From an uncultured Gammaproteobacteria bacterium (GTDB lineage Bacteria > Patescibacteriota > Microgenomatia > Daviesbacterales > UBA10151): 64,000 bases of DNA. Position numbers and translations under genes: made by a program. The notes under the pieces were generated by a model. That model was given only the letters and a program-made list of their open reading frames with translations, did not search any database and was not told the DNA's origin. Positions 31,168-61,150 of this stretch are shown piece by piece (positions within the stretch are counted from its first letter, which is position 1; the number at the start of each line of letters is the position of its first letter). The stretch spans positions 1,140 through 65,139 of the forward strand of contig CAZDEH010000003.1 of assembly GCA_964504665.1 (NCBI GenBank), read 5' to 3'.

Positions 31168-31189
31168 CCTCCAAGGAGAGTCCTTGGAG
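31168..31189. repeat. REP-like family B palindrome (cctccaagg-agagt-ccttggag) 40 nt upstream of the RAYT-like gene start
   Basis: Perfect 9-bp arms seen directly. Confidence 0.7.
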
Positions 31190-32912: not shown

Positions 32913-33737
32913 ATGAATGAAGATCAAACTATAAAACAGGATGACCCACAAACAACCCCAATTGATGAGGCAAATCCAGTTGTGGAAGAACCAGAAGCAA
33001 CTGAAGCAAAACCCGACGAAATAGATACTGCGGGTGACGCAGAGGAGAGATCTCAGGCGTCGACCGCAAGTGAGCCTGCGAACGAGGAGGCACCTGAAAT
33101 ACCACCAGCAAAGGACCCGCAGACAGAAGAACCAGCAGAAACAACAGAAGAAGGAACTGAAGAATCTGATGTCGCCGACGAGCCGGCTCCCCAACCTGAA
33201 CCTGATATCCCTGGTTCCCATTGGTATGTAGTCCATACTTATTCTGGACAAGAAAACAGAGTGGCAGCAGCTTTAAAGCAAAGAGTTGAATCAGAACATT
33301 TGGAAAATCAAATCTTGGATATACTAGTTCCTACCCAGGAGAAAATTGAAATCAGGGGTGGAAAAAAAGAAAATGTGAAAGAAAAAATATTTCCTGGTTA
33401 TATTTTAGTCAGAATGGTTTTGGATGATATTTCCTGGCTGGCAGTTCGGACCACACAAGGAGTCACATCATTTGTAGGAATGAGCAATAAACCAACCGCC
33501 ATCCCTGATTCCGAGGTCAAATCAATCGTTTCTTATTTGTCTCAAGGAGCTCAACCTACTTATAAAACAACTTTCTCGGAAAATGATACTGTCAAAATCA
33601 TTGACGGACCGTTTGCTGAATTTATCGGCAAAGTGGAATCTGTTGATAAAGAAAGAGGTAAAATTAAAGTCCTGGTTTCTATCTTTGGCAGAGAAACACC
33701 AGTGGAGCTAGACTTTCTTCAAGTTGCGAAATTATAA
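32913..33737 (+). CDS. nusG: transcription termination/antitermination factor NusG with a ~100-aa acidic low-complexity N-terminal extension
   Basis: NGN domain HWYVVHTYSGQENRV; KOW motif DTVKIIDGPFAEFIGKV; conserved secE-nusG-rplK order. Confidence 0.85.
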   Translation: MNEDQTIKQDDPQTTPIDEANPVVEEPEATEAKPDEIDTAGDAEERSQASTASEPANEEAPEIPPAKDPQTEEPAETTEEGTEESDVADEPAPQPEPDIPGSHWYVVHTYSGQENRVAAALKQRVESEHLENQILDILVPTQEKIEIRGGKKENVKEKIFPGYILVRMVLDDISWLAVRTTQGVTSFVGMSNKPTAIPDSEVKSIVSYLSQGAQPTYKTTFSENDTVKIIDGPFAEFIGKVESVDKERGKIKVLVSIFGRETPVELDFLQVAKL

Positions 33738-34173: not shown

Positions 34174-34965
34174 ATGGGTAAAACTAAAATAAAAAAAATT
34201 GAGGAAATTGAAGAAGTAAAAACAAATACCATACCAGAAATGAGTGAGGATGCACGGCGGGAAACCGAGCTGGCAGGACCCCAAACCAAGGACGAAAAGA
34301 AAAGTAAGAAACCAAAAAAAGGTCAGCCTAAAATCCGTTCTAAAAAATATCAGGAAGTTTTAGAAAAAATAGATAAAAACCAAAAATTAGCAGCAAACTT
34401 AGCTGTAGAAGCCACCCAAAAAGGTTCCTATTCTAAATTTGAAGGAACAATAGAGGCTCATATTAATACTAATGCTAAAAATCTACGCGGTTTAGTTAAT
34501 TTGCCTTTTGCCCAAGGTAAGAAATTAAGGATTTTAGCTTTTGGAACTAATGCAGATAAATCCGGTGCTGACATTATTGGATCAGAAGAGGCAATTGGAG
34601 AAATTGAAAAAGGCAAAATTAATTTTGATATTGTAGTTACAACCCCAGAGTGGATGCCCAAATTAGCTAAAATTGCTAAAATCCTGGGACCCAAAAGTTT
34701 AATGCCTAACCCCAAAAATGGAACTATCACAGAAAATTTAGAAAAAGCTGTCACAGAGCTTCAAGCCGGTAAAACCGAATATAAAACCGAAAACAATGGG
34801 CAGGTAATTCATCTATCCGTTGGAAAGTCTAATCAAAACCCGGAAGAAATAGTAGCAAATCTTAAAGTGATTTATAATACTGTGGGCAGATCAAAAATCA
34901 AAAAGATCTTTCTTTCCCCCACCATGGGCCCATCTGTGAAAGTAGATTTATCAACTCTAAATTAA
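34174..34965 (+). CDS. rplA: ribosomal protein L1 with a Lys-rich N-terminal extension
   Basis: FEGTIEAHINTNAKNLRGLVNLPFAQGKK...; 1-nt spacing from rplK. Confidence 0.85.
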   Translation: MGKTKIKKIEEIEEVKTNTIPEMSEDARRETELAGPQTKDEKKSKKPKKGQPKIRSKKYQEVLEKIDKNQKLAANLAVEATQKGSYSKFEGTIEAHINTNAKNLRGLVNLPFAQGKKLRILAFGTNADKSGADIIGSEEAIGEIEKGKINFDIVVTTPEWMPKLAKIAKILGPKSLMPNPKNGTITENLEKAVTELQAGKTEYKTENNGQVIHLSVGKSNQNPEEIVANLKVIYNTVGRSKIKKIFLSPTMGPSVKVDLSTLN

Positions 34966-35270: not shown

Positions 35271-36185
35271 TTCTAGGTGGAAGTGCACCACTTGCTTAGG
35301 ATAATACCTCCATCATTTTCTCATATGGTGTCAAGTATCCCAGACATTTTCTGGGAGTTGAATTTAATCTGTACTCCAACTCCTTGATCTGATCCTCTGT
35401 TAAATTATCCAGACTCAACCTTTTAGGAATGAATCTTCTTATCCTGCCATTAGTATTTTCAACTGTCCCTTTCTCCCAGGAATGGTAGGCATGACAGAAA
35501 AACATAGATAATTTAAGTTTACTGGCAATCTCCTGATGGTTGGTATTTTCTGCTCCATTGTCAGCTGTTAAAGTTACTCTGGGAAAAGTAGCCAATCTTT
35601 CAATTAAGCTTTCTGTTTTAGACTCAGCAGATCTACTGGTAAGAGATAATATCGTCAGTCTTGTTAACCTTTCAACTGTCACAGACAAGGCAGTTTTATC
35701 TGTCTGTTTACCAATAACATTATCTGTTTCCCAGTCTCCAACCCTGGATCTTAAGCTGACTGTCTCAGGTCTTAAATCAATACTGACTGCAAAGGGTATT
35801 TTTGAGGCTCTTTGAACCCTTCTACCCATCTTTTTCATCCTCTTTTTCCTGGCATGAGGTAGTAGTTTCCAAAGATTATATCTTTTTGATTTCTTTGAAT
35901 AAATGTACTGGTAAATTGCCTCAGTACAAATACTTTCACCAGGATGTATCTTTGGTAATCTTCCACTAATTTCCTCCGGAGTCTAGCTAAATGGAGCTCT
36001 TAAATGTTCCCTGACAAAACTTGAATGGGATCTGCCTAATCTTTTAGCAATATCCCGAAGAGATAATCCAGCCTCTTTAAAAGCTACTAATTTTTCTCTT
36101 TCTTCCAAACTTAGATGTTTATATTTATTCATTAAGTGCACCTCCTTCCCCAGGTATGAATTTTACTCTAGGTGGTGCACTTCGT
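35271..36185. mobile_element. degenerate IS30-family insertion sequence (~0.9 kb)
   Basis: DDE transposase with IS30 hallmarks; imperfect terminal inverted repeats sharing the core GAAGTGCACCAC (35280-35291 and, as reverse complement, 36172-36183); direct tctaggtgg at both ends. Confidence 0.6.
35296..36132 (-). pseudogene. IS30-family transposase, disrupted by an in-frame TAG (35983-35985) and missing ~50 aa between the HTH and DDE regions
   Basis: N-terminal HTH (LSLEEREKLVAFKEAGLSLRDIAKRLGRSHSSFVRE), then TAG, then TPEEISGRLPKIHPGESICTEAIYQYIY, GDWETD, TADNGAE, HSWEKGTVENTNGRIRRFIPK. Confidence 0.65.
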
Positions 36186-36284: not shown

Positions 36285-36309
36285 GCCTCCAAGGGGACGC
36301 CTTGGAGGT
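36285..36309. repeat. REP-like family B palindrome (gcctccaagg-ggacg-ccttggaggt), 5' flank of the RAYT-like gene
   Basis: Seen directly; an identical 23-nt copy at 37039-37061. Confidence 0.75.
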
Positions 36310-36342: not shown

Positions 36343-37017
36343 ATGCCCAGCAAAAATTCCATCAAACAGTATACAGAAAATAGCTATTATCATATCTATA
36401 ATCGAGGAGTTGAGAAAAGAAAAATTTTTCTTGATGAACAAGATTATGGAGTATTCCTCTCCTATCTTAAAGAATACCTTTTATCAAAAGATGAAAAAGA
36501 CTTATTAAATCAACTTTCTATTCCAACTATCTCTGCTCAAGAAAGGGACCGGGTACTTAAAAAACTTAGACTGAACAATTTTGCTGATGAAATAACTTTG
36601 TTAGCTTATTGTTTGATGCCGAATCATTTTCACTTCTTTATTAAGCAAAAAAACGAAAAGTCCATTGATAAGTTTATGAATTCCCTCTTAACTAGATATA
36701 CTATGTATTTTAATAAAAAATATAAACGAGTTGGGGCTTTATATCAGGATGTTTATAAAGCAGTTACGGTTGACCGCGAAGATCAATTTCTTTATCTTAC
36801 TAAATATATTCATAAACAGGCTTTAAAAACCCACAAAAGACAACCGTCTTCCCTACCTGATTATCTTGGAAACAGAAAAACTGAATGGGTTCACCCCGAA
36901 GAAATATTAGCTTATTTTTCCAAAACCAAACCCTCTCTTAGTTATAAAGATTTCCTTGATCTAGAAGAATCTGAAGATCTATTAACTATCCAAGACTTAA
37001 TGATTGATATCAAATAA
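36343..37017 (+). CDS. HUH/Y1 transposase family protein (RAYT/IS200-like), paralog 2
   Basis: SYYHIYNRGVEKR, MPNHFHFF (HUH), KYIHKQ; flanked by identical palindromes. Confidence 0.65.
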   Translation: MPSKNSIKQYTENSYYHIYNRGVEKRKIFLDEQDYGVFLSYLKEYLLSKDEKDLLNQLSIPTISAQERDRVLKKLRLNNFADEITLLAYCLMPNHFHFFIKQKNEKSIDKFMNSLLTRYTMYFNKKYKRVGALYQDVYKAVTVDREDQFLYLTKYIHKQALKTHKRQPSSLPDYLGNRKTEWVHPEEILAYFSKTKPSLSYKDFLDLEESEDLLTIQDLMIDIK

Positions 37018-37038: not shown

Positions 37039-37061
37039 GCCTCCAAGGGGACGCCTTGGAG
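37039..37061. repeat. REP-like family B palindrome (gcctccaagg-ggacg-ccttggag), 3' flank of the RAYT-like gene
   Basis: Identical to 36285-36307. Confidence 0.75.
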
Positions 37062-42688: not shown

Positions 42689-43375
42689 ATGATTGAGAGA
42701 GCTTTTGAAGAAGCACAATTACATCAGGATAATAAAGGAAACGCTACTAGGCGGTTTGCTATTGAGCAAGCTTGGAATCTATTAAGAGCTGCTGGGGTAA
42801 CTGATCCTGCTATTACCGATCAGGCTGTAGCTACAAGACTCCAAAGAGCAGTAGAATCTCTATATTTTATCACTGAAGGATTGGGAGTAAGAAGCATTCT
42901 GGATATTGGGGGTAAGTCAGTAGATCGACTAGAAGCTGATGTCAAAAGGGTAAGAAATATAGGCGGATATGCTTCAGATGTGGTGCATAATCCTAAATTT
43001 ACGACTCTTGAGAAAGTTACACCCATAGAAATAATTAAACTACCAGTTTCTGCTTTAGGATTGGATGGTACTCCTACTACCAAACAAGTTCTTGGAAGAA
43101 TCCCACAATGTAGAGTAGGAGATATGGCTTTAGAGCTTTGTCCTGTAGAAGTAGGACTACATCTGGCGATAAAAGATACAGAACAACCTTTAAGTGACTG
43201 TTACTATATTATGCACGAACCAATTCCCGACCGTCACGGCTCTCCGCTCGTGTTCGGGCTGGAGCGTGACGCTCGCGGACTTTGGTTGAGCGTTTCTTGG
43301 GCTAGACCTGACCGCAGGTGGCTTCCTGAGTATCAGTTAGTTTGTGCTCTCCGAAGGTTGCAGTACTGCGTTTGA
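42689..43375 (+). CDS. hypothetical protein with visibly higher GC and a GC-rich 3' end
   Basis: ORF with Arg/Ala/Gly-rich composition, unlike its neighbours; preceded by a TTGACA-18-TAAGAT promoter (42649-42678); occupies the position where rpoB normally follows rplL. Confidence 0.4.
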   Translation: MIERAFEEAQLHQDNKGNATRRFAIEQAWNLLRAAGVTDPAITDQAVATRLQRAVESLYFITEGLGVRSILDIGGKSVDRLEADVKRVRNIGGYASDVVHNPKFTTLEKVTPIEIIKLPVSALGLDGTPTTKQVLGRIPQCRVGDMALELCPVEVGLHLAIKDTEQPLSDCYYIMHEPIPDRHGSPLVFGLERDARGLWLSVSWARPDRRWLPEYQLVCALRRLQYCV

Positions 43376-43867: not shown

Positions 43868-44821
43868 TTATGGAAGCAAACCGACATCTCTGAGGATTTT
43901 AGTGAGTTTTGAATAATCAAACACATTAACTACCCCATCTTGATTCATGTCTGCTTTCAGAGTACCTTGACCTTGACTACCCCAGGCAGAAAGAAGCACA
44001 CTTAAATCCTGCAAGTCTACTTTTGTGTCCTGATTAACATCTCCTTCCAGAGACCCTATTGGAGTAGGGGTTAAGGTAGGAGAAGGCAACACCTCTATCG
44101 TGGGAGTCACAGTTGATGAAGGAGATGCAATCGGCGTTTCCCCCAAAATTTTGATAGTGACTCCTGTTTTGGAAGATAAAATATTGGCATTATCCGAGTT
44201 TCGATAAATTGTGGAAGTATCATTAAAGGAAATAGTAGCCTCCCCAGGAGATTTAGGGGTAAAAATTACATCTGCCATAGCAGAACCGCTTGATTCAGGC
44301 TGTGACTGAAAACCAGGGTTAGGCACACCTCCTACTAAACTAACAGATCCGGTCTCGTTATCAATAGTGTTTTCCACCCAATTACTAATAAACCAATTTT
44401 TGATAAACCCACTTGCTGTGGCTTCTGATCGGAGGTCAATACTTTTAGCCTGAAGAATATTGTTGGGAAATTTTAATTTGGCTACAAATAGATTTGCACT
44501 GTCATTATCTGATTTAACTAAAACAGATACCTTAATTTGGCCTCCCAGGGTAGCTTCTGTAGGACTTGCATTTAAAATAAAGCTAGCACCGTGTGAGGAT
44601 ACCGGGGGCACCTGAGGCTCTTCCTGGGGCTTTGGCTTTGCTTTTAAAAAATATGCTGCACCTAAAATTACTATAAGAAGCAACAATATACCAACTGCCA
44701 GAATCATTTTTTTTGGAATAACAGCACTGGGTTTTTTCTTTATACCAGGATCTATGAGAGTTGTTTGGGGCAGTTGTTGATCCATTAATTTAAGTATAGG
44801 AGGCATGGCGTGGTTTCGCAA
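43868..44821 (-). CDS. membrane-anchored secreted protein with C-terminal dockerin-like repeats
   Basis: GDVNQDTKVDLQDLSVLL ... ADMNQDGVVNVFDYSKL; N-terminal TM. Confidence 0.45.
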   Translation of the reverse strand: MRNHAMPPILKLMDQQLPQTTLIDPGIKKKPSAVIPKKMILAVGILLLLIVILGAAYFLKAKPKPQEEPQVPPVSSHGASFILNASPTEATLGGQIKVSVLVKSDNDSANLFVAKLKFPNNILQAKSIDLRSEATASGFIKNWFISNWVENTIDNETGSVSLVGGVPNPGFQSQPESSGSAMADVIFTPKSPGEATISFNDTSTIYRNSDNANILSSKTGVTIKILGETPIASPSSTVTPTIEVLPSPTLTPTPIGSLEGDVNQDTKVDLQDLSVLLSAWGSQGQGTLKADMNQDGVVNVFDYSKLTKILRDVGLLP

Positions 44822-47872: not shown

Positions 47873-49063
47873 ATGAAAATAGGTTTTGATGGATCCCGTG
47901 CTTTTTTCAATAATAAGACCGGCACGGAAAATTATTCCTTTCAACTCTTAAAACACCTAGCTAAAATTGACAGTAAAAACCAATATATCATTTATTTAAG
48001 ACCTTTAGCCTCGCAAGGACCAGCCTTGCAAGGCTGGCCGACTAATTTCCATTTTACTATGATTCCTTATTCAAGACTATGGACTCAATTTGGCTTAGCT
48101 CAACAAACTTTTAAAGATAAAATTGATGTGCTATTTGTTCCTGCCCACACACTCCCCTTAATTAGAAAACCCGGACTTAAAACTGTAGTCACAGTACATG
48201 ACTTAGGTGCAGAGTACTTACCACAAACTCATCAATTAAAACAAAGGGTATATTTAAAATTGATAACTGATTTTCAACTTAAATCTGCCGGATATCTTAT
48301 TGCCGTATCAAGGAATACTAAAGATGATCTGGTGAAAAAAGTCCATATTAATCCTAATAAAATCACTGTTATATATGAAGGATATGATAAAACAGCATTT
48401 AAACCCTTAAAAACTGATGAATTAAAAGATACTTTAAACTATTACGATTTAGAAAGAGATAGATATTTCTTATTTGTGGGAACCATCCAACCAAGAAAGA
48501 ATTTAGAAAGGTTAATTAAAGCTTTTGCTAATTTTTTAGCGGGTGGTGCGAGCCGGGGCGCCCCATATTTTTATTATGGGGCTGGCGAGCAACAGGACCC
48601 GTTAAAGCCCCGAACAAAAAAAATACAACTTATCCTAACTGGTTCTAAAGGTTGGCTTTCAGAAGAAATTTATGAACTTCCTAAAAAGCTTGGTATCGAA
48701 AATCAAGTGAAGTTTTTAGGCTATGTTCCTGACAAGAATTTACCGGCGCTTTACAGCGGAGCTACCGCCTTACTTTTCCCTTCCTTATTTGAAGGTTTTG
48801 GACTACCTCTACTTGAAGCTATGGCTTGTGGAACACCGGTTTTAACATCTAATCTTTCTTCTATGCCGGAGATTTCAGGAAAAGCAGCACTCCTTGTAGA
48901 TCCTTACTCTGAAGAACAAATCGCGCAAGGAATTAATAGGCTATTTTACGATCAAAAACTAAAAAATCAGCTGAAAAAACTGGGAATTGCGCAAGCCCAA
49001 AAATATTCCTGGGAAAGATGTGCTGAGGAAACCTTAAAACTACTTGAAGCTACTTCAGATTAA
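47873..49063 (+). CDS. GT4-family glycosyltransferase carrying two in-frame GC-rich inserts
   Basis: EGFGLPLLEAMACGTPV (GT4 E-x7-E region); inserts at 48006-48035 (LASQGPALQG) and 48540-48613 (AGGASRGAPYFYYGAGEQQDPLKPRT). Confidence 0.75.
   Translation: MKIGFDGSRAFFNNKTGTENYSFQLLKHLAKIDSKNQYIIYLRPLASQGPALQGWPTNFHFTMIPYSRLWTQFGLAQQTFKDKIDVLFVPAHTLPLIRKPGLKTVVTVHDLGAEYLPQTHQLKQRVYLKLITDFQLKSAGYLIAVSRNTKDDLVKKVHINPNKITVIYEGYDKTAFKPLKTDELKDTLNYYDLERDRYFLFVGTIQPRKNLERLIKAFANFLAGGASRGAPYFYYGAGEQQDPLKPRTKKIQLILTGSKGWLSEEIYELPKKLGIENQVKFLGYVPDKNLPALYSGATALLFPSLFEGFGLPLLEAMACGTPVLTSNLSSMPEISGKAALLVDPYSEEQIAQGINRLFYDQKLKNQLKKLGIAQAQKYSWERCAEETLKLLEATSD
48006..48035. repeat. REP-like family A palindrome in-frame in the GT4 gene (tagcctcgcaagg-accag-ccttgcaaggct)
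   Basis: Seen directly. Confidence 0.7.
48540..48613. repeat. GC-rich element family C (gggtggtgcgagccggggcgccccat ... atggggctggcgagcaacaggaccc), in-frame in the GT4 gene
   Basis: Near-identical arms recur at 56326-56400 with a different central segment. Confidence 0.7.
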
Positions 49064-51059: not shown

Positions 51060-51205
51060 GATTATACCAGTTATAATTGTTATAATCTTCTAAATTATAC
51101 GGGGACTAGTTCACCCGCCTGCTAGCGCCTGAGCGCCCGCCTGCTTCGATAGGCGAAGCATTTCGGGCAGGCAGCGATGGCGGGCAGGTCGGTAGCCCGC
51201 CAAAA
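51060..51205. repeat. GC-rich structured block between divergent tRNA genes
   Basis: cccgcctgc / gcaggc, cttcg-ataggc-gaag, gcggg...cccgc inverted repeats; composition unlike the AT-rich surroundings. Confidence 0.45.
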
Positions 51206-52429: not shown

Positions 52430-53503
52430 TTACTCTTCTGTTAAAATTTTAGCCATTTGTTTAAGTAAAGCTACCACTACCGGAGCAGGCATCAAACTAT
52501 GAGATTCCACTCCTTGGTTATCTTGCACTACCCAAGGACTTTCATGAGTACTCACGGTCTTGGTTTGTTCATCAAATTGATAGCTAAAAGCAGGTGTCAG
52601 CTCATATTTATCAAAAAGTTCTTCTGCCTGGCTTACAGGAATAGAATTCCGCAACAGTATGTTGGGGATACCGGAAAGTTTAAAAGACTCATCTATAATT
52701 TCCTGATCTTTTGCAAGCCTCTCTTTAATTGGGTCTATCCCTAATTCATCACCCTCTTTACTAACCATAATGGCTTTATTGCAAGATGGATTATCGCATC
52801 TCAGATAATATTCTTTTGTCTTTTCATCATATTCTACAATAGAGGTTGGTAATAATCTGATGTTGCGTGGAGCTTGACAGATAGGACAGATCCGGCGGAA
52901 TTTAATTCTTTCATTGATCACAGAGTCCGGAATATCAATCAAAATGTACATGTCTTGATCCGCTCCTCTCCCAACAATTTCCTTAAAATATAATGAGCAA
53001 GATATTTGATCAATTTCTCGCGGGTATCCATCCAGAAAAACACTTTTTCCGGCTAACTCATCAAATTTTACCCTGAGCATTGCCAGGATAAACTCTGAGG
53101 GGAGTAATTTACTGGCAGAACGACCCAAGAATCTTTCAACTGCCTCGTCAAAACTCAAAGGTCCCCTATAAAATGATTTTAATTTTTTGCCTTGCTCACC
53201 TTTAGAATAATTCTCCCAATCAGCATGTACTTCCCTCACCAAATCACCCACAGAAAGATGAACTATTTTTTCTTTTCCGATCAAATTGGAAAATATTTTT
53301 GAATACGTTCCTTTACCGGCATTCTTTTTCCCCACAAAGAAAGCAATGAAGTTTCGTTTTTCTAAAGCTTTTTTGATAATTTCAATTTCTTTTCCTGTTT
53401 TAGCTTGAAAATACGCCTGCAACGAATCGGGATTGGTTAAATCATAAACTTTAGTCACATCTTGTGTTTTAGCACCAATTAAAGGAAAATTAGTTTTTGT
53501 CAT
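52430..53503 (-). CDS. adenylate kinase-family protein (extended, Zn-lid type)
   Basis: GKKNAGKGTY (P-loop), SVGDLVRE, LDGYPRE, and lid CPICQ...CDNPSC. Confidence 0.55.
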   Translation of the reverse strand: MTKTNFPLIGAKTQDVTKVYDLTNPDSLQAYFQAKTGKEIEIIKKALEKRNFIAFFVGKKNAGKGTYSKIFSNLIGKEKIVHLSVGDLVREVHADWENYSKGEQGKKLKSFYRGPLSFDEAVERFLGRSASKLLPSEFILAMLRVKFDELAGKSVFLDGYPREIDQISCSLYFKEIVGRGADQDMYILIDIPDSVINERIKFRRICPICQAPRNIRLLPTSIVEYDEKTKEYYLRCDNPSCNKAIMVSKEGDELGIDPIKERLAKDQEIIDESFKLSGIPNILLRNSIPVSQAEELFDKYELTPAFSYQFDEQTKTVSTHESPWVVQDNQGVESHSLMPAPVVVALLKQMAKILTEE

Positions 53504-54642
53504 TATTCCACCTCTATATCTGAAATATTGTAACTGCCATCAGCATAAACGTCAACGGTAGCAAATCTGGGAGCCTCTGTATTCCGTTCTTTGGTTATTG
53601 CTCCAACTGTAACCATATTCATATTACTTGCCATATCAGTGTATGAAGTATATGCATGAATATCACCGGCAAAGATTCCTGCCACACCCGCATTTTTAAA
53701 ATTATTTAGCAGCTCCTTAGCCTGCTCTTTAATTTTAGTATTTTCCAATATGGCTGGATCTGTTTTTCTGGCAGAGCCCGCTTCGCCGAATCGAGACGAG
53801 TCCGCTTCGCCAGTCTTGCGAGGCGAGCCCATGACTTGATCTGAGGTTGGATGAACCAATGGTTCATGTAGAAAGATATAGATTGACTTAGATTGATTAG
53901 TCTGCACCTTATTTAATTCATTTTTTAACCAGTTAAATTGTAAATCGTCTACCCCATTATAATTATCAGAGTTAAAAGTAAGAATAAATCTGACACCGGA
54001 ATCGGAAAAAGCCTGATAAGGCATACCAAATACCTGGCTATAATTATTGACCGCAACACTACCTTTATCCCGAGAGTCCCACAAATCATGATCTCCCGGG
54101 ATGACATAAAAAGGTAAGCCGCTTGTCTCAAAAACCTGCTTGGCATCCTCCAACTCCTTAATTGTTCCCACATCACTAAAATCTCCCAAACCAATCACAA
54201 ACTTTGCTCCACCTGCTTTAGCTTGAGCTAAGGCTTTTTTTAAATCTTCATTGTTGTTATGTGAATCTGCTACAAGGGCAAATTTAAAAAGCGGAGATCC
54301 GCTTTTCTTTGTGGGACGGGAAGTATTGTTATTTTCCGGTGCATCGTTGTTATTCAAGGACAATTTTAGATCTTTAGCAGGACTAAAACTTAAGACACCG
54401 GCAATCATTTTGGTCGTTTCCTCTGAAGTAATAAGCCCAATAATTGCCTGTTTAGGGTTAGCTGGAAACTCATTCACAGCTTTCGTAATAGGATCACCCT
54501 CAAGTATATTCCCTGAAAAATATTTAAAAGCCTGAATCAGAGCTACTCCTAAAATTAAAAATAAAACCAGGGAAATAAACAGCCTCAAGATAGTCAAAGG
54601 CAGTGGTACTCCGTGTCTCCGATTTTCAGACCGATGAAACAT
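53503..54642 (-). CDS. calcineurin-like metallophosphoesterase, membrane-anchored, with an in-frame GC-rich insert
   Basis: ALVADSH, GLGDFSDVG, YVIPGDHDLW, GDIHAY; insert GSPRKTGEADSSRFGEAGSA encoded by 53776-53829. Confidence 0.65.
   Translation of the reverse strand: MFHRSENRRHGVPLPLTILRLFISLVLFLILGVALIQAFKYFSGNILEGDPITKAVNEFPANPKQAIIGLITSEETTKMIAGVLSFSPAKDLKLSLNNNDAPENNNTSRPTKKSGSPLFKFALVADSHNNNEDLKKALAQAKAGGAKFVIGLGDFSDVGTIKELEDAKQVFETSGLPFYVIPGDHDLWDSRDKGSVAVNNYSQVFGMPYQAFSDSGVRFILTFNSDNYNGVDDLQFNWLKNELNKVQTNQSKSIYIFLHEPLVHPTSDQVMGSPRKTGEADSSRFGEAGSARKTDPAILENTKIKEQAKELLNNFKNAGVAGIFAGDIHAYTSYTDMASNMNMVTVGAITKERNTEAPRFATVDVYADGSYNISDIEVE
53776..53829. repeat. GC-rich element family D (cccgcttcgcc ... 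ttgcgaggcgagcc), in-frame in the metallophosphoesterase
   Basis: Shares both termini with 59094-59134. Confidence 0.65.
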
Positions 54643-54659
54643 AATATTAATTATACACG

Positions 54660-56294
54660 CTACATTCTTTCCGGCGCTTCAATCCCCATAATTTTAAGTG
54701 TATTACCCAAAACAATTTTGCAGGCTGAAACTAAAGCCAGTCTGGATTTTTTTAAATCATCCGTTTCAGCATTAAGTACTCTGCAGGATTCATAAAACTT
54801 ATGGAATAAATCTGCCAATTTTATAACATAAGCTGTTAATTTATGAACATGATAGGTTTCCGCTATCTCTGCTATCAAATCAGGAAACTGAACTAAATGT
54901 TTAATTAAGGATAGTTCTAAGTGATTTAATTTAGCCACGCCAAGCGAGGCTTGGGAGCCCACATCGGCTTTATTTAAAATATTAGACATTCTGGCATGAG
55001 CATATTTAACATAATAGACAGGGTTTTTTTGTGATTTTTCTTTGGCTAAATCCAGATCAAAATTCATATGAGTATGCATATCATACATTAGAAAGAAAAA
55101 ACGGATTTCGTCTTTACCAATTGTCTGCAATAGCTCATCCAAAGCAACATAAGTACCTGCCCTTTTACTCATTCTTACTTCTTGTCCATTTTTTATAAGC
55201 TTCACCATCTGGAATAGGACAAAATCTAACCACTCAGTTTTAGTAATAGCTTCCACACTCAACTTTAATCTAACTACATAACTATGATGGTCAGCTCCCA
55301 GAAAATTTATCCTTTTTACGTAACCACGCTTGAACATCTCCAGGTGATGAATAATATCTGGCAGCAAATAGGTGGGTTCGGCTCTACCACGCACATCAAC
55401 TGACGTCATCAACACCCGATCTTTTTCATCCCCAAATTGACTTGATTTGAACCAGACTGCTCCGTCTTTTTTATAAGATAATCCTTTCTCTTCTAATAAT
55501 TTAACTGTTTTTTGGATTAAATCTCTTTCATGCAGACTTCGTTCGGAATAATACTCATCAAATTTAATTCCCATTTTTTTTATTGCCGGCTTAATTTCAT
55601 GATCCATAAGATAATCTGCCAGGATATAACCTAATTCCTGAGACTCTAAATCCAGTTTGTCTACAAATTTAACAGCTAATTCTTTAATATATTCACCCTG
55701 ATAATGTTCTTCTTTAGACTCAATTTTTCCTGCAGCAGAGAGCACAGATTCACCAAGTATTCTGATCTGATTACCAGTATCATTAACATAATATTCTCTA
55801 TTGACCTCAAATCCATTCCAGCTTAAAACGTTAGCTAGTGTATCCCCAAGTGACCCTCCCCTACCATTAGCTAGTGTTAAAGGACCTGTTGGATTAGCAG
55901 AAATATACTCAACCTGAATTTTTTTACCCTTCCCAAAATCAGACTTGCCAAAATCTTCACCCTCTTTTAAAATAACCTCCAAGCTTTTTACTAATATCTC
56001 ATCTTTAATATAAAAGTTAATAAAGCCCGGACCAGCAACTTCTATTTTATCCAAATATGGAAGGGTTCTTAAATTTTCCAAAATTTTATTAGCAATCTCT
56101 TGCGAAGTTTGCTTGCCTTTTTCTGATTTCTGTTTAGCAAGCTGCAAAGCGATGTTCGAAGTATAGTCTCCAAAGGATGAATTTTGTGGAATATCACAAA
56201 CTATATCAATGGTTTTAAAAACCTGCCTGTCGGCAGGCAGACCTAAATCTTCTACAGCTTTTTTTAAGTCACCAACTAACTGCTGCTTAATCAT
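54660..56294 (-). CDS. argS: arginyl-tRNA synthetase
   Basis: ISANPTGPL...GRGG (HIGH-region equivalent), C-terminal DALR/anticodon-binding region HKFYESCRVL. Confidence 0.85.
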   Translation of the reverse strand: MIKQQLVGDLKKAVEDLGLPADRQVFKTIDIVCDIPQNSSFGDYTSNIALQLAKQKSEKGKQTSQEIANKILENLRTLPYLDKIEVAGPGFINFYIKDEILVKSLEVILKEGEDFGKSDFGKGKKIQVEYISANPTGPLTLANGRGGSLGDTLANVLSWNGFEVNREYYVNDTGNQIRILGESVLSAAGKIESKEEHYQGEYIKELAVKFVDKLDLESQELGYILADYLMDHEIKPAIKKMGIKFDEYYSERSLHERDLIQKTVKLLEEKGLSYKKDGAVWFKSSQFGDEKDRVLMTSVDVRGRAEPTYLLPDIIHHLEMFKRGYVKRINFLGADHHSYVVRLKLSVEAITKTEWLDFVLFQMVKLIKNGQEVRMSKRAGTYVALDELLQTIGKDEIRFFFLMYDMHTHMNFDLDLAKEKSQKNPVYYVKYAHARMSNILNKADVGSQASLGVAKLNHLELSLIKHLVQFPDLIAEIAETYHVHKLTAYVIKLADLFHKFYESCRVLNAETDDLKKSRLALVSACKIVLGNTLKIMGIEAPERM

Positions 56295-56325
56295 AAATTA
56301 ATCATAACATATATACGATGGGTGG

Positions 56326-56400
56326 TGCGAGTCGGGGCGCCCCATCGAACACCCGCAACGAAGTGAGGATGTCGGATGGGGCTGACGAGCAATAGGACCC
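56326..56400. repeat. GC-rich element family C, intergenic copy (atgggtggtgcgagtcggggcgccccat ... atggggctgacgagcaataggacccat)
   Basis: Both arms match 48540-48613 with 3-4 substitutions. Confidence 0.7.
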
Positions 56401-56401
56401 A

Positions 56402-57394
56402 TCATTTTTTTGATAATTTCCATACCCCTACTCCCAACATTAAATAATACCCTATCCACATCAATATCCCTGTTTGGTTAATATTAATACTGGCCCCAGG
56501 TATTTTGGAAAATAGCTGAACGATATAAATAAAGTAGGTCAGTAAAATTCCCGGTATTAAACCCACAATTTGACCCAAGAGTTGACTGATCAAACCTAAA
56601 ATCATAGCCACAAAACCTGAAATCATCACGATTGGCACACTCCAAAGAACTAAACTATTTGTAAGGAGTCCTGCAATAGAAATTTGATTAAAATTATAGG
56701 CAATCACTGGTAATACCATCAGTTGAGCAGCTAAAGTTACGGCAAAATCTTCTCTCATTAGCTTGGGGATCTTTTTTATAGCTTCAGAAAAAATTGGAGC
56801 TACCACTATTACTCCAAATGTAGCCAGAAAACTGAGCTGAAAAGAAATATTTAGCAACCAATTTGGTTGATAAAGTAACATCAGGCCTCCGGTAAACAGT
56901 AAAATCCACCAACCAGTTCCCTCCCTGCCTAACAGCTTTCCTGTATAGGAGAGTCCTGCCATAATAGCCGCCCTAACTACCGGCACTCCAAAGCCTGTTA
57001 ACACACTATAAAATATAATTACTCCTAAAGTGAATATTATTGTTTTTCTCCTGCCTAATAAACTTACCAGACTCATGACAAATCCTGCCAAAATAGTTAA
57101 ATTTTGACCTGAAACTACCACAATATGAATGGTTGAAGTTATCTGTAATTGCTTTTTAAAATAAAATGGTAAACTCGACTGATTCCCTAAAATAATGCCT
57201 GAAAGTAGGGCTGACTGAGGATAAGGTAAGATACGGTCAATAGTTTGAGATAGCGACGATCTAAGAGGCAAAAATAGCTGAACACCTTCTTCTTTATAAG
57301 TGGGGTCAACTCCCCCAATTTGGATTACCCTAAAACTAAATAATATAGCCCAAATTATGATAATCCCAATAATAACCTTGTACATTGTTACCAA
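56402..57394 (-). CDS. comEC: ComEC/Rec2-family competence channel protein (TM core only)
   Basis: SALLSGIILGNQSSLP...IHIVVVSGQNLTILAG (Competence domain); adjacent to comEA. Confidence 0.65.
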   Translation of the reverse strand: MVTMYKVIIGIIIIWAILFSFRVIQIGGVDPTYKEEGVQLFLPLRSSLSQTIDRILPYPQSALLSGIILGNQSSLPFYFKKQLQITSTIHIVVVSGQNLTILAGFVMSLVSLLGRRKTIIFTLGVIIFYSVLTGFGVPVVRAAIMAGLSYTGKLLGREGTGWWILLFTGGLMLLYQPNWLLNISFQLSFLATFGVIVVAPIFSEAIKKIPKLMREDFAVTLAAQLMVLPVIAYNFNQISIAGLLTNSLVLWSVPIVMISGFVAMILGLISQLLGQIVGLIPGILLTYFIYIVQLFSKIPGASININQTGILMWIGYYLMLGVGVWKLSKK

Positions 57395-58525: not shown

Positions 58526-61150
58526 TTAGTCAACTTCATTAATCAGCCACCAATCAAAAGTAATATCTTTAGATGCATTTTTAGAAGCAGTCACAGTAAA
58601 TTTTTTAGCTTCTTCTTTAGCAGTCACTGCCAACACTGTATCTGTCTCCGTTGTGGGTGTTACCAGAATTCTTGATCTTGTTGAAACTATTAAGTTATCG
58701 ATCTCCACTGATTTTTCACCCAAAGTAATTTTTGCATTACCTGATGTCTTTCCCCCTTTTATTTTAAGTTCAGAAACTTCAGCTGTTTTGGCTTTGACAG
58801 TTCCTGTCTTATCAATAGTAACCATCCCGTTAAAAAAATCTACCAAAGCTGTCAAATCTGATTTTTGAATGAATAGAGTGGGTAAAGCATTGATGGCATT
58901 GCCATCAGTCAGGAAAAGTGTCCCATCTTGAACAATATCACCAGCAGCAATCACAGTACCCACCAGAGTTTCTCCCAAGGATTTTAAAGTTTTGGAAAAT
59001 GTTGCGGTTTCATATGTTAATAAGGAACCTGATAAGGTTGCTTCCATAGGAGGCTCTAGAGTGAGGTTGAGATTGTCTACCGACTGCTGACTTCCCGCTT
59101 CGCCCGTCTTTGACGAGGCTTCGCGAGGCGAGCCGACTTCTGCTAAACCAGCAGAAGGAGTAGCAGAGGAAGAAGCGGATTGTTGTGCTGAAGTACTGGA
59201 CTCCTCGGATGGTGGCAACGACCTGTCCGCCGAAGCCGTGGCGAAGGAAGAAGGAAACTCCTCCGAGGTGAACAGAGTGGCTGAGATGGAAGATTCTAAA
59301 TTATTTAATCTCAAATCTGTATCTTTTAATACTGCTACAATATCAAGAGTGAGGTGATAGCTGCTGCTAACCTCTGTTGCTAACTCCTGGATAGACTTAA
59401 CTAAAACTGGGATCATTCCGATGGTATTTAATGATTTTAACCCTGTTTCACTCTCAGTTGTTACCAGTTTAGGTATAACTTGTTCTACCTCTTGGGCAAT
59501 AAACCCAAGATTTTTAGTAATAGCATCAGATTCTGTTTTCCAGTTATACCAAACAGGCCGAAGAGACATTACAGCATCCAGTCCATAATTTAGATCATCA
59601 ATATTTTTCTTTAAGTTAACATCTGAAGAACAGGAAATTGTTCCTCCTGTAGCCAAAGTACACCCTGTGGTATTCACATCAGTAAATTTAGCTATAGTTG
59701 CTCCTGTGCCTGTGCCTTTTACCTCAAAAGGAGCAGAAGGATTGGTGGTGCCAATTCCTACATTGCCAGTCGAACTGTCGACAGTTAATGAATCACTCCA
59801 CATAGGATTACCTGATGTCCCTATGATCATAGTACTTCCTTGATTACCAGCACTCAGCGCTGAAAATGAAGTAGTTGAGTCAGCAAATAATAAGTCACCA
59901 GCTAAAAAAGAGGATAAACCAGTACCACCATGCTCAGGGCTTAACTCCCCTTGTTTAATAGAGCCTGCATCAACATGACCATCATATGATATAGAAATAC
60001 TATCTTGTATATCAGAATCTATCAAGCAATTATCACAACCACCCCTATCTCTGACAGAAAATAAAGTAGATGTGTCACTAATAACTAAACCATCAACCGC
60101 AATGTCATTACCTCCAATAAGTTTCAAATCTCCACTAAGTCCCCCTAAAGAGCTGACTAAAGCTGGTAATTTTAAACTTATTTTCGGTGTTTGCCCACCG
60201 GAAATAACCACATTATCACCGGCTATTAGACCATAAATAATATTAGGAGCAGTTAATAGTCCCTCCACAATAGTGCTGCCTTTAAGCATAATCTGGTTAA
60301 CAGCATCTGTTGATTCTCCAAGAACCTTGGTATCAGAATTTATTTGTTGACGATTAAAAGTCGAAGATGAAATTTTAACGTTTGTAGATAACTGGCGTAT
60401 TTGATCAGTCATTTCCAAAACTTCATCCATCTCTGTTTGTATACCAGCTACTTTCTGGTTAATAAAATTAGTATTGCTATTAACTTTATCTAACTTATCC
60501 ATAATTTGAAAACCAGTATACAACCCAATAGATACTCCTGCTGACATAATGAAAAGAAAAAGAATGACTGCCAACGAATAATGAATTACGTTTGTTCTGC
60601 TAGATCTATTATTACTATTTTTTGGTTGATCAGGGGAAACAGCTCCGGGAATGTTCATCTCCTCTTGTAGCTTTAAAATTAATTTTTTGGAAAAACGCCT
60701 GGCTCCTCCACTGGCTCTTTGACTGGCAATTAACCCTTTTTTATCCCAGTTCCTAATAGTATCCGGGGAAACCTGAAGTAATCTGGCTGCCTTAGAAACA
60801 GACAAACCGGTAATTAGGGCGTTAACTTGAGTCTTATTTTTAGTATTTAGTTGTTTTTGCATCTCTTCCAATTCAATTAGGTTGTAGCGCCTGGATCCAC
60901 CTTGCGTTCTATCCGGTATCAGCCTTCCTTGTTTTTCCCAATTTCGGAGAGTGTCAGGATTCACTTGTAAAATTTGGGCTGCTTTAGAAATTGGGATGAA
61001 ACTTTTGGCTATCTTTCTCGGCTTACTAGATGGGATACTTACTCTCATCTCAAATAGTCTATTTTGACCTATAATTAAAGAGTTTCCAGCAGCACTTTTT
61101 TCTTCGTGTAGTTCTAGAGTTGGTAATCTTTTAAGTGTTAATTTAGGCAT
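58526..61150 (-). CDS. large membrane-spanning protein: two N-terminal MerR-type HTH domains, one TM, an extracytoplasmic beta-rich region with an S74-like intramolecular-chaperone domain, and a Ser-rich tail
   Basis: VNPDTLRNWEKQGRLIPDRTQGGSRRY and VSPDTIRNWDKKGLIASQRASGGARRF (MerR HTH + wing); TM VIHYSLAVILFLFIMSAGVSIGL; NLKKNIDDLNYGLDAVMSLRPVWYNWK...LGFIAQEVEQVIPKLV resembles the tailspike chaperone (peptidase S74) motif; in-frame family D repeat at 59094-59134. Confidence 0.5.
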   Translation of the reverse strand: MPKLTLKRLPTLELHEEKSAAGNSLIIGQNRLFEMRVSIPSSKPRKIAKSFIPISKAAQILQVNPDTLRNWEKQGRLIPDRTQGGSRRYNLIELEEMQKQLNTKNKTQVNALITGLSVSKAARLLQVSPDTIRNWDKKGLIASQRASGGARRFSKKLILKLQEEMNIPGAVSPDQPKNSNNRSSRTNVIHYSLAVILFLFIMSAGVSIGLYTGFQIMDKLDKVNSNTNFINQKVAGIQTEMDEVLEMTDQIRQLSTNVKISSSTFNRQQINSDTKVLGESTDAVNQIMLKGSTIVEGLLTAPNIIYGLIAGDNVVISGGQTPKISLKLPALVSSLGGLSGDLKLIGGNDIAVDGLVISDTSTLFSVRDRGGCDNCLIDSDIQDSISISYDGHVDAGSIKQGELSPEHGGTGLSSFLAGDLLFADSTTSFSALSAGNQGSTMIIGTSGNPMWSDSLTVDSSTGNVGIGTTNPSAPFEVKGTGTGATIAKFTDVNTTGCTLATGGTISCSSDVNLKKNIDDLNYGLDAVMSLRPVWYNWKTESDAITKNLGFIAQEVEQVIPKLVTTESETGLKSLNTIGMIPVLVKSIQELATEVSSSYHLTLDIVAVLKDTDLRLNNLESSISATLFTSEEFPSSFATASADRSLPPSEESSTSAQQSASSSATPSAGLAEVGSPREASSKTGEAGSQQSVDNLNLTLEPPMEATLSGSLLTYETATFSKTLKSLGETLVGTVIAAGDIVQDGTLFLTDGNAINALPTLFIQKSDLTALVDFFNGMVTIDKTGTVKAKTAEVSELKIKGGKTSGNAKITLGEKSVEIDNLIVSTRSRILVTPTTETDTVLAVTAKEEAKKFTVTASKNASKDITFDWWLINEVD
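59094..59134. repeat. GC-rich element family D, in-frame in the 874-aa protein (encoding GSPREASSKTGEAGS)
   Basis: cccgcttcgcc ... ttcgcgaggcgagcc. Confidence 0.65.

What the first reader, a model, noticed from the sequence alone, without database searches (positions are those of the whole stretch)
48540..48613. Family C: a ~75-nt GC-rich element with conserved arms and a variable core, once in-frame in a glycosyltransferase and once intergenic
48540-48613 (inside GT4, adding about 26 aa: AGGASRGAPYFYYGAGEQQDPLKPRT) and 56326-56400 (between argS and comEC) share arms gggtggtgcgag[c/t]cggggcgccccat and atggggctg[g/a]cgagcaa[c/t]aggaccc. Their central segments differ (atttttattat versus a 31-nt core). 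Terminal short inverted repeats (gggt...accc) and an internal ggggcgcccc palindrome are present. This resembles a MITE-like element able to land in coding sequence without breaking the frame.
Basis: seen in the sequence. Interest (0 to 1): 0.7.

Follow-up and report, generated by a model that had tools for sequence, protein, structure and literature searches.

The report
GC-rich fold-back repeat inside genes
The flagged segment is a shortened copy of a roughly 90-base, GC-rich, hairpin-forming repeat that is widespread in ultra-small "candidate phyla radiation" bacteria, sits in-frame inside many housekeeping genes, and points the same way relative to DNA replication, much like the palindromic elements of Rickettsia.

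Summary
Copy A (48538-48603, inside a GT4 glycosyltransferase) and copy B (56317-56403, between comEC and argS) share 26-nt and 25-nt arms. They differ by five transitions, four of which form two compensatory pairs. Copy B is full length. Copy A has lost the apical hairpin.

The family is large. About 55 true copies were found in low-GC metagenome contigs from Daviesbacteria- and Levybacteria-like CPR bacteria. A diverged third copy lies in the NusG N-terminal extension (33028-33122), and a 3' half lies in rplA.

The copies fold into one four-helix hairpin with strong covariation. 35 of 60 copies lie inside long ORFs (CarB, FolD, PRPP synthetase, ClpB-like, DnaX-like and others), in several frames and both orientations. 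The same GT4 loop holds the element sense, antisense or as another subfamily in different species, and AlphaFold models it as a low-confidence loop.

Orientation follows the replication strand rather than the gene: GC3 skew is negative in 17 of 19 loci.

Best reading: a non-autonomous, translated-through, Rickettsia-palindromic-element-like repeat. It probably spreads through a single-stranded hairpin, which is inferred, not shown. It is not a classical MITE: no target duplication and no autonomous partner were found. Nothing matched in Rfam or in the searchable literature.

The parts
48538..48603 (+). Copy A: apex-deleted copy of the element, in frame in the GT4 glycosyltransferase. 5' arm 48541-48566, AT-rich replacement of the apex 48567-48575, 3' arm 48576-48600, terminal stem extended to A48538/U48603.
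   Evidence: Covariance model hit of 52.4 bits with 37 model positions replaced by 9 nt.
56317..56403 (+). Copy B: full-length copy with helices P1-P4, between the comEC stop and the argS start. It is antisense to both flanking genes, and its terminal stem overlaps the comEC stop codon.
   Evidence: Covariance model hit of 95.8 bits.
33028..33122 (+). Copy C: diverged subfamily-2 relative, with the same termini (GCGGGUGAC...AAAGGACCCGC) and the same inner loop (UCGA-CCGCA...GAGGA) but a different P3. It lies in frame in the N-terminal extension of NusG.
   Evidence: (18.7 bits, E about 0.008). It aligns with the GT4-site copy of L072.
34243..34283 (+). Remnant D: the 3' half only (GUGAGGAUG...GGCAGGACCCC), in frame in the N-terminal extension of ribosomal protein L1.
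   Evidence: Similarity only; not a covariance model hit.
47873..49063 (+). Host gene of copy A: a GT4-family glycosyltransferase. The insert falls between helix 209-222 and strand 252-256 of the C-terminal Rossmann-like domain.
32913..33737 (+). Host gene of copy C: NusG, with a roughly 100-aa N-terminal extension that contains the element.
   Evidence: The NusG of L071 is 220 aa, against 274 aa here.
56402..57394 (-). comEC-like ORF. Its stop codon abuts and overlaps the end of copy B.
54660..56294 (-). argS. Its start codon lies 22 nt from the other end of copy B's extended stem (25 nt from GGGU).

Best explanation
Copy A is an internally deleted member, and copy B a full-length member, of a family of 80-100-nt GC-rich fold-back repeats carried by Microgenomates-type CPR bacteria (Daviesbacteria, Levybacteria and relatives). 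The element has no gene of its own. It is copied within genomes at the DNA level. It persists in intergenic DNA and in the few permissive places of housekeeping proteins, namely surface loops and N-terminal extensions, in either orientation. Because it is GC-rich and poor in stop codons, the ribosome reads through it and adds 20-35 residues of Gly/Ala/Pro/Arg/Ser-rich, disordered peptide. This behaviour matches that of Rickettsia palindromic elements. What is conserved is the fold of one strand, not the peptide. That fold has four covarying helices, fixed internal loops, a G-rich bulge and a GT[GA][GA] tetranucleotide at the foot of the main hairpin. The element's orientation tracks the replication strand. 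From this I infer, without having shown it, that it spreads through a single-stranded DNA hairpin at the replication fork, recognised by a trans-acting enzyme, as in REP/REPIN-RAYT and IS200/IS605 systems. Shown here: the family, the fold, in-frame residence in both orientations, patchy presence among orthologs, within-genome similarity and the strand bias. Inferred: translation through the element, the single-stranded-DNA route and the enzyme.
For: 1. Family. An exact-pattern scan of metagenomes gave 65 loci, about 55 of them true members with both arms, all in contigs of 35-55% GC (all but three 35-48%). A covariance model found 68 hits in 459 kb, including diverged relatives with the same termini.
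2. Fold. 97.2% of cells are paired, against 33-47% when the partners are slid. 141 cells changed on both sides, against 43.5 in shuffles (0 of 500 shuffles reach the observed value). 10 of 22 pairs show compensatory changes. The 8-bp helix P2 has many sequence variants. Copies A and B themselves differ by two compensatory pairs.
3. Strand specificity. The GGGUG strand folds better than its complement in 37 of 48 copies (p = 2e-5). There are 66 G.U cells against 10 A.C cells, plus conserved G.A pairs.
4. Coding residence. 35 of 60 copies lie in long ORFs, 22 sense and 13 antisense, in several frames. Pfam identified ten of the hosts, including CarB, FolD, PRPP synthetase, a ClpB-like ATPase, a DnaX-like protein, a 5'-3' exonuclease, a radical SAM enzyme and a UvrD-type helicase.
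5. One GT4 loop in different species. It holds the element sense (L002, L004, L005, L047, window), antisense (L071), as subfamily 2 (L072) or only as a remnant (L073).
6. Patchy presence. More than 100 of 120 PRPP synthetase orthologs lack any insert at the site.
7. Loop location. AlphaFold gives mean pLDDT 88.9 for the GT4, with its minimum (block means 48-57) at the insert, between a helix and a strand.
8. Copying within genomes. Window copies A and B share derived bases (UGCGAG, CGAGCAAY) absent elsewhere. Element similarity is incongruent with flank similarity among GT4 orthologs.
9. Replication polarity. All six loci with more than one copy have co-oriented copies. GC3 skew in element-strand terms, averaged over sense and antisense genes, is negative in 17 of 19 loci (mean -0.126) and -0.12 in the window. 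The inverted GT4 copy in L071 sits in a gene on the opposite compositional strand.
10. Stop codons. On average 4.29 of 6 frames are open, against 3.69 +/- 0.14 in shuffles.
11. REP-like signature. GTGG or GTGA lies directly 5' of the hairpin foot in 50 of 58 copies (definition from PMC6006769). Two RAYT-like Y1 genes are present in the window.
Against: No target-site duplication, no target motif and no longer autonomous version were found. The two RAYT-like genes in the window are flanked by a different 22-nt hairpin, not by this element. No Y1 gene lies near any other copy. The better-folding strand lies on the C-rich strand, which serves as template for the leading strand. IS608-type elements have their active strand on the lagging-strand template, so either the complement is the active strand or the mechanism differs. 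REPs are 21-65 nt, mostly extragenic and species-specific. This family is longer, mostly intragenic and conserved across many species. Conservation of this kind also fits a functional RNA. Translation through the element is inferred only from intact ORFs in essential genes. The replication strand is inferred from GC3 skew on fragments, not from mapped origins.
Confidence: 0.62

Rival explanations
1. It is a family of functional structured non-coding RNAs, either a small RNA or a cis-acting RNA element, which CPR bacteria keep in many copies. The intragenic copies are by-products or dual-use sequences.
For: There is strong covariation, and the loops, G.U pairs and G.A pairs are conserved across many species. 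Intergenic copies have extended, covarying terminal stems. The sequence conservation across species is unusual for selfish repeats.
Against: No Rfam family matches, even at E up to 10. 13 of 35 intragenic copies are antisense to their host gene, so the structured strand is not in the host mRNA. No consistent promoter or terminator context was seen in the flanks; no formal promoter or terminator scan was run. The apex is freely deleted. Orientation follows the replication strand rather than transcription.
Confidence: 0.13
2. It is a chromosome-level, strand-polar DNA signal that benefits the host, for example a signal for replication, repair, recombination or chromosome organisation. It would be kept by selection rather than by selfish copying.
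For: There is a strong orientation bias relative to compositional skew, and copies within a locus are co-oriented. Sequence and fold are conserved across species.
Against: Known polar signals, from general knowledge, are short oligomers rather than 90-nt hairpins. Presence is patchy among orthologous sites. Truncated and apex-deleted copies and remnants exist. Placing such a signal inside essential enzymes has a cost that a host signal would not need to pay.
Confidence: 0.1
3. The element is removed before or during translation, as an intron-like RNA excision or by ribosomal bypassing as with the mitochondrial byp elements. The host proteins would then never carry the extra peptide.
For: It forms a compact stable hairpin inside coding sequence. 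GC-rich inserts in an AT-rich genome recall the mitochondrial GC clusters and byp elements, a comparison from memory.
Against: Every intragenic copy keeps the frame and has no stop codon in the frame used, in several frames and both orientations. Excision or bypassing would not require that. A strand-specific RNA fold cannot act in antisense copies. No ribozyme or intron family matches. The CUGAYGAG resemblance to a hammerhead core fails, because copy A has CUGGCGAG.
Confidence: 0.03
4. The GT4 insert is an old, vertically inherited protein segment, and the intergenic copy is a secondary duplicate of it. On this view there is no mobile family.
For: Several GT4 orthologs share the peptide pattern GxAGxGAP...RTSDG...RQDP at one site. 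Even the 'empty' ortholog L073 keeps a GGGTGACGCA remnant.
Against: The same nucleotide element lies in at least ten unrelated proteins and in intergenic DNA. It occurs inverted at the same GT4 site. Element similarity and flank similarity are incongruent. Copy A is closest to the intergenic copy of its own genome.
Confidence: 0.02

Closest known systems
Rickettsia palindromic elements (RPE; also reported in Wolbachia)
   Same: Both are interspersed palindromic repeats of about 100 bp, found in intergenic DNA and in frame inside unrelated housekeeping genes. Both are read through as extra peptide. Some insertion sites are shared between species and others are lineage-specific. No transposase and no known mechanism has been found for either (PMC10969869; PMC1779305).
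   Different: The host is a different phylum (CPR/Microgenomates rather than Rickettsiales), and no sequence relation is claimed. This element is shorter (60-100 nt) and GC-rich in an AT-rich genome. It has a defined four-helix fold conserved across many species, both orientations at one protein site, and a replication-strand orientation bias. I do not know whether a strand bias has been examined for RPEs.
REP / REPIN elements mobilised by RAYT (TnpA-REP) HUH enzymes
   Same: Both are GC-rich imperfect hairpins with a GT[AG]G-type tetranucleotide directly 5' of the hairpin foot. Both are non-autonomous and present in many copies per genome. The expected substrate is single-stranded DNA. RAYT-like genes are present in this window.
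   Different: REPs are 21-65 nt, largely extragenic and species-specific, and they flank their own RAYT gene. This element is 80-100 nt, has an extra closing stem and conserved internal loops, and is mostly intragenic. It is conserved across species and does not flank the RAYT-like genes, which carry a different 22-nt hairpin.
IS200/IS605-derived miniature elements (single-strand 'peel and paste' transposition)
   Same: In both, hairpins are recognised by structure, there is no target-site duplication, and orientation is coupled to the replication fork (PMC6006769; PMC5027513 abstract).
   Different: Those elements carry two different subterminal hairpins and insert next to a fixed tetra- or pentanucleotide. 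This is one long fold-back, no target motif was found, and the better-folding strand lies on the opposite compositional strand from the one expected for IS608.
GC clusters and byp elements of yeast mitochondria (from memory, not checked here)
   Same: Both are short, GC-rich, hairpin-forming mobile inserts in a very AT-rich genome, including inside protein-coding genes.
   Different: Those are organellar and eukaryotic. Byp elements are skipped by the ribosome and need not keep the frame, whereas here the frame is always kept.

Membership tests
Rickettsia palindromic elements (as a kind, not as a sequence family) | Interspersed palindromic repeat of about 100-150 bp with many copies | tested here: met
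   Copies of 60-100 nt fold back on themselves. About 55 copies were found in metagenomes, with 3 copies plus a remnant in this 64-kb window. They are somewhat shorter than RPEs.
Rickettsia palindromic elements (as a kind, not as a sequence family) | Found both between genes and in frame inside unrelated protein-coding genes | tested here: met
   35 of 60 copies lie inside long ORFs; Pfam named ten unrelated host families. The rest are intergenic.
Rickettsia palindromic elements (as a kind, not as a sequence family) | Inserts sit at positions compatible with the protein fold (surface) | tested here: met
   In the GT4 model the insert is the lowest-confidence loop between a helix and a strand. 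Other copies lie in N-terminal extensions. Only one host was modelled.
Rickettsia palindromic elements (as a kind, not as a sequence family) | Sequence homology to the RPE-1 to RPE-10 families | not tested
   No RPE sequences were available in the tools. No homology is claimed.
Classical MITE | Target-site duplication (direct repeats) flanking the element | tested here: not met
   The flanks are inverted complements that extend the stem, not direct repeats. The CGAG...CGAG flanks of one subfamily also pair as C-G, G.A, A.G, G-C. The empty-versus-filled comparison shows no clean duplication.
Classical MITE | Terminal inverted repeats shared with an autonomous, transposase-encoding element | tested here: not met
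   No pair of arms 160-6000 nt apart with complementary P2 was found in about 0.5 Mb. The data set is small, so this is weak evidence.
REP / REPIN (RAYT-associated) | GTAG or GTGG tetranucleotide 0-2 nt 5' of a GC-rich hairpin | tested here: met
   GT[GA][GA] lies directly 5' of P2. Counts are GTGG/GTGA 50 of 58; GTAG and GTAA were each seen in single copies. Definition from PMC6006769.
REP / REPIN (RAYT-associated) | Size 21-65 nt, largely extragenic, species-specific sequence | tested here: not met
   The element is 80-100 nt, 58% of copies are intragenic, and it is conserved across many metagenomes and at least two candidate phyla.
REP / REPIN (RAYT-associated) | The cognate RAYT gene is flanked by copies of the same repeat | tested here: not met
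   Both Y1_Tnp genes of the window are flanked by a different 22-nt hairpin, CTCCAAGGnnnnnCCTTGGAG.
IS200/IS605-type single-strand transposition | Orientation bias relative to the replication fork | tested here: inconclusive
   A strong bias exists (17 of 19 loci). The better-folding strand is on the C-rich strand, and origins were not mapped. Which strand is active is unknown.
IS200/IS605-type single-strand transposition | Fixed tetra- or pentanucleotide target next to one end; two distinct subterminal hairpins | tested here: not met
   There is no conserved flank motif, and the architecture is a single fold-back.
Known RNA families (Rfam 15), including self-cleaving ribozymes and introns | Match to a curated covariance model | tested here: not met
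   Only tRNAs reach the gathering score in the window. No relevant match at E up to 10 around copy B.
Integron attC sites | RYYYAAC / GTTRRRY core sites, in arrays next to an integrase | tested here: not met
   The core sites are absent from the consensus. Copies are dispersed and mostly intragenic.

The most novel reading that the evidence does not exclude
The family is a previously undescribed class of structure-dependent, replication-strand-polarised element of CPR bacteria. Its single-strand fold is kept by purifying selection even inside essential enzymes, so those stretches carry two codes at once. It would be either a new single-stranded-DNA mobility system with an unidentified enzyme, or a functional strand-specific nucleic-acid signal that proteins have had to accommodate.
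Probability: 0.3. Interest if true: 0.8.

Novelty: new variant of a known kind. Interest (0 to 1): 0.62.

Why it matters
CPR bacteria have tiny genomes that are usually thought of as streamlined. Yet here a selfish-looking, GC-rich hairpin repeat sits inside core enzymes such as CarB, FolD, PRPP synthetase, NusG and a cell-envelope glycosyltransferase.

If confirmed, four things follow:
- It explains many of the odd low-complexity inserts and length differences seen in CPR proteins. These inserts confuse annotation, alignment and structure prediction.
- It provides a second, independent case of the Rickettsia 'coding palindrome' phenomenon, in an unrelated reduced-genome lineage. That makes the question of how such elements move, and why reduced genomes tolerate them, open to comparison.
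- Its replication-strand polarity and conserved fold give concrete handles for finding the mobilising enzyme.
- Repeats of this kind are likely break or chimera points in metagenome assemblies.

Tried and rejected
- **Rfam.** Gathering thresholds on the whole window and E up to 10 around copy B gave only tRNAs and noise.
- **Hammerhead idea.** CUGACGAG in copy B resembles the hammerhead core, but copy A has CUGGCGAG and others have CCGGCGAG, so I dropped it.
- **GTDB genome scan.** I used the window-specific 5' arm and got only a chance hit in a GC-rich Polyangiaceae contig. The result says nothing about absence from reference genomes.
- **Exact look-up of the window GT4.** It was not on record in the contig index.
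- **Peptide searches for other host proteins.** A concatenated consensus query found nothing, because of the word index and the database size. One search was wasted.
- **Phage, plasmid and IMG/VR searches.** These gave no match, or chance matches that the covariance model rejects.
- **Search for a long autonomous version.** None was found in the loci held.
- **Empty versus filled PRPP synthetase alleles at 77-80% protein identity.** About 107 nt replaces about 17 nt. The alleles are too diverged to define junctions or a duplication.
- **Length modulo 3 of intragenic copies.** This was uninformative, because the element boundaries (stem extensions) vary.
- **AT3 skew.** It shows no replication signal in the window.
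- **Intrinsic-terminator reading.** Copy B is followed by T7, but other copies are not.
- **Literature.** Nine full-text searches found no description of such an element in CPR bacteria.
Full report
**Observation.** The two copies are real. The 26-nt 5' arm lies at 48541-48566 and 56320-56345. The 25-nt 3' arm lies at 48576-48600 and 56376-56400. Each arm occurs exactly twice in the window with up to 3 mismatches allowed, against zero expected. The centres are 9 nt and 30 nt. Copy A is in frame in a 396-aa GT4 glycosyltransferase (47873-49063). Copy B fills the space between the comEC stop and the argS start, and both of those genes are on the other strand. Both copies fold into the same hairpin, with z-scores of -2.75 and -3.59. 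Counting the pair just outside GGGU/ACCC, the two copies differ by five transitions. Four of these make two compensatory C-G to U-A pairs.

**Organism and host gene.** GT4 homologs place the window in Candidatus Daviesbacteria (Microgenomates, CPR). I aligned 120 orthologs, which share the MreB-GT4-PEGA neighbourhood. The alignment shows that the insertion point, between RKNLERLIKAFA and KLVLAGSKGWL, is hypervariable. Inserts there range from 0 to about 70 residues and fall into several recurrent peptide types. AlphaFold models the window protein well (mean pLDDT 88.9). Its confidence minimum (block means 48-57) falls on residues 223-248, a loop between helix 209-222 and strand 252-256.

**The family.** DNA of GT4 orthologs L002, L004 and L005 carries the full-length form of the element at this site. 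So copy B is the full-length type and copy A has lost its apex. A pattern built from the conserved interior found 65 metagenome loci. About 55 of these have both arms and lie in contigs of 35-55% GC, all but three at 35-48%. The other ten, at 59-71% GC, lack the arms and are chance matches.

The consensus is: (N)n GGGUGRC GCGAGnn GGGGnn CCCCRUCGAGYR CCCGCA [variable hairpin] GAGGA YRUCGGAYGGGG nnCGAGCG RCAGGACCC (N)n.

RNAalifold on a structure-blind MAFFT alignment of 48 copies gives 22 pairs, 10 of them with compensatory changes. The counts are as follows:
- 97.2% of cells are paired, against 33-47% for slid partners.
- 141 cells changed on both sides, against 43.5 in shuffles (0 of 500 shuffles reach the observed value).

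The 8-bp helix P2 exists in many sequence versions. Some have a central tandem G.A, and a G.A pair at its base swaps to A.G (38 against 12). The GGGUG strand folds better than its complement in 37 of 48 copies (p = 2e-5), with 66 G.U cells against 10 A.C cells. The selected object is therefore the fold of one strand.

A covariance model found 68 hits in 459 kb. The weaker hits keep the termini but have other interiors:
- L027:8137-8229, a second, independent apex deletion.
- Window 33024-33126, which I call copy C.

Copy C lies in the NusG N-terminal extension. It matches the 'subfamily 2' copy that occupies the GT4 loop of L072. A 3' half lies in the N-terminal extension of ribosomal protein L1. 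With filters off, the window holds no further copies.

**Residence in genes.** 35 of 60 model hits lie within long ORFs, 22 sense and 13 antisense, in several frames. Pfam identified these hosts: CarB, a DnaX-like protein, a 5'-3' exonuclease, FolD, PRPP synthetase, a ClpB-like ATPase, a radical SAM enzyme, a UvrD-type helicase-nuclease, a DNA alkylation repair protein and a PabB-like protein. Reading the insert-flanking peptides by eye, several sites look shared between species: CarB in L057 and L058, FolD in L040 and L056, and PRPP synthetase in L035 and L037.

The antisense translation (SGPAGSQPHPMSSLSLRALDGAPRSPSP) explained a second peptide type seen in GT4 orthologs. L071 indeed carries the element inverted at the same GT4 site. 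L073 is 'empty' but keeps a GGGTGACGCA remnant. In PRPP synthetase of Levybacteria-like organisms, more than 100 of 120 orthologs have no insert at the site and about nine carry assorted inserts. There, insertion is the derived and sporadic state.

Stop codons are mildly depleted: 4.29 of 6 frames are open, against 3.69 +/- 0.14 in shuffles. The frame is always kept, in both orientations and in essential genes. I therefore infer read-through translation rather than excision or bypassing.

**Copying within genomes.** Copies A and B share bases found in no other copy (UGCGAG and CGAGCAAY). Among GT4 orthologs, element similarity does not follow flank similarity:

| Pair | Flank identity | Element identity |
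|---|---|---|
| window - L002 | 0.77 / 0.73 | 0.60 |
| window - L004 | 0.65 / 0.64 | 0.80 |
| L002 - L047 | 0.82 / 0.79 | 0.74 |
| L004 - L047 | 0.66 / 0.66 | 0.84 |

This pattern fits independent insertion, replacement or gene conversion. It does not fit simple vertical descent.

**Replication polarity.** In all six loci with more than one copy, the copies point the same way. That makes seven extra copies, or p of about 0.008 if orientation were random. In the window this holds although copy B is antisense to its neighbouring genes while copies A and C are sense.

I expressed GC3 skew in element-strand terms and averaged it over sense and antisense genes, so that the coding bias cancels. The result is negative in 17 of 19 loci (mean -0.126) and -0.12 in the window. 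Most loci with only one gene class agree. The inverted GT4 copy of L071 lies in a gene on the opposite compositional strand from the sense copies. Orientation therefore follows the replication strand and not the gene. By the usual rule that G exceeds C on the leading strand (established knowledge, not mapped here), the better-folding strand is on the C-rich strand.

**Mechanism.** Four features point to a single-stranded DNA hairpin intermediate at the fork, as in REP/REPIN-RAYT and IS200/IS605 systems (PMC6006769):
- selection on a strand-specific fold;
- independence from host transcription;
- replication polarity;
- absence of target duplication.

The element even has the REP hallmark, GT[GA][GA] directly 5' of the hairpin foot. 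The window encodes two RAYT-like Y1 proteins.

The enzyme assignment nevertheless fails its direct test. Those genes are flanked by a different 22-nt hairpin. The strand polarity is also the reverse of the IS608 expectation. No autonomous version or target motif was found. I therefore hold the single-stranded-DNA route at roughly one in three, and the general 'selfish, translated-through fold-back repeat' reading at about 0.6.

**Comparison with known elements.** Functionally the closest are the Rickettsia palindromic elements. These are interspersed repeats of about 100-150 bp, found between genes and in frame within unrelated genes, with both ancient shared sites and lineage-specific bursts (PMC10969869; PMC1779305).

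This family differs in five respects:
- the host phylum;
- its GC-rich composition;
- a defined four-helix fold conserved across species;
- both orientations at a single protein site;
- the replication-strand bias.

It fails the membership tests for classical MITEs, REPs, IS200/IS605 derivatives, attC sites and all Rfam families. Nine full-text searches found no description of it in CPR bacteria. That library is incomplete, so prior description cannot be excluded.

**Verdict.** The element is a new, RPE-like variant with unusual conservation and strand polarity. Interest 0.62.

Noticed in passing
window 31228-31914 (+) and 36343-37017 (+); hairpins at 31169-31189, 31714-31734, 36287-36307, 37041-37061: Two paralogous (about 60% identical) IS200/RAYT-like Y1 HUH genes lie within 5 kb of each other. 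Each is bracketed by a 21-22-nt GC hairpin, CTCCAAGGnnnnnCCTTGGAG (4 copies found, 0.16 expected). One hairpin (31714-31734) lies in frame inside the first gene. This looks like a small REP-RAYT system distinct from the element studied.
   Followed up: partly
window 48010-48035: A related short hairpin, CTCGCAAGGACCAGCCTTGCAAGG, lies in frame in the N-terminal half of the same GT4 gene (peptide LASQGPALQG). This gene therefore carries two different GC-rich palindromic inserts.
   Followed up: no
window 53766-53836 and 59080-59143: Two GC-rich islands share CCGCTTCGCC...GCGAGGCGAGCC motifs. They lie inside ORFs: a metallophosphoesterase at 53503-54642 and a large ORF at 58526-61150. They are probably another in-frame repeat family.
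   Followed up: no
window 43213-43294, 44581-44642, 51097-51205: These are further short islands of 68-75% GC in a 36% GC window. The last one lies between tRNA-Arg and tRNA-Pro. They were not classified.
   Followed up: no
GT4 orthologs P0002-P0120, alignment columns between RKNLERLIKAFA and KLVLAGSKGWL: The same loop holds several other recurrent insert types, which are probably other element families. Examples are ARLSRKAPLARP...SSVALTDL, HSGAKQSEAIESRSY, HLRGV...HLGG, SSNEVRS and AKRSNL..QARMT..EIASS..APRND.
   Followed up: no
L030 versus L008 and L036: L030 shares its 5' flank with L036 and its 3' flank with L008, and the switch falls inside the element. This is either recombination between copies or a metagenome assembly chimera at the repeat.
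   Followed up: no
window 35296-35838 (-): A 180-aa ORF resembles the C-terminal part of an IS30-type transposase by eye. It has no Pfam hit at E up to 0.01 and may be a fragment.
   Followed up: no
PRPP synthetase orthologs P0122, P0128, P0200, P0203, P0225, P0234, P0239: One site of PRPP synthetase carries at least four different kinds of insert in different Levybacteria-like organisms, whereas more than 100 orthologs have none. It is a second insertion hotspot like the GT4 loop.
   Followed up: partly
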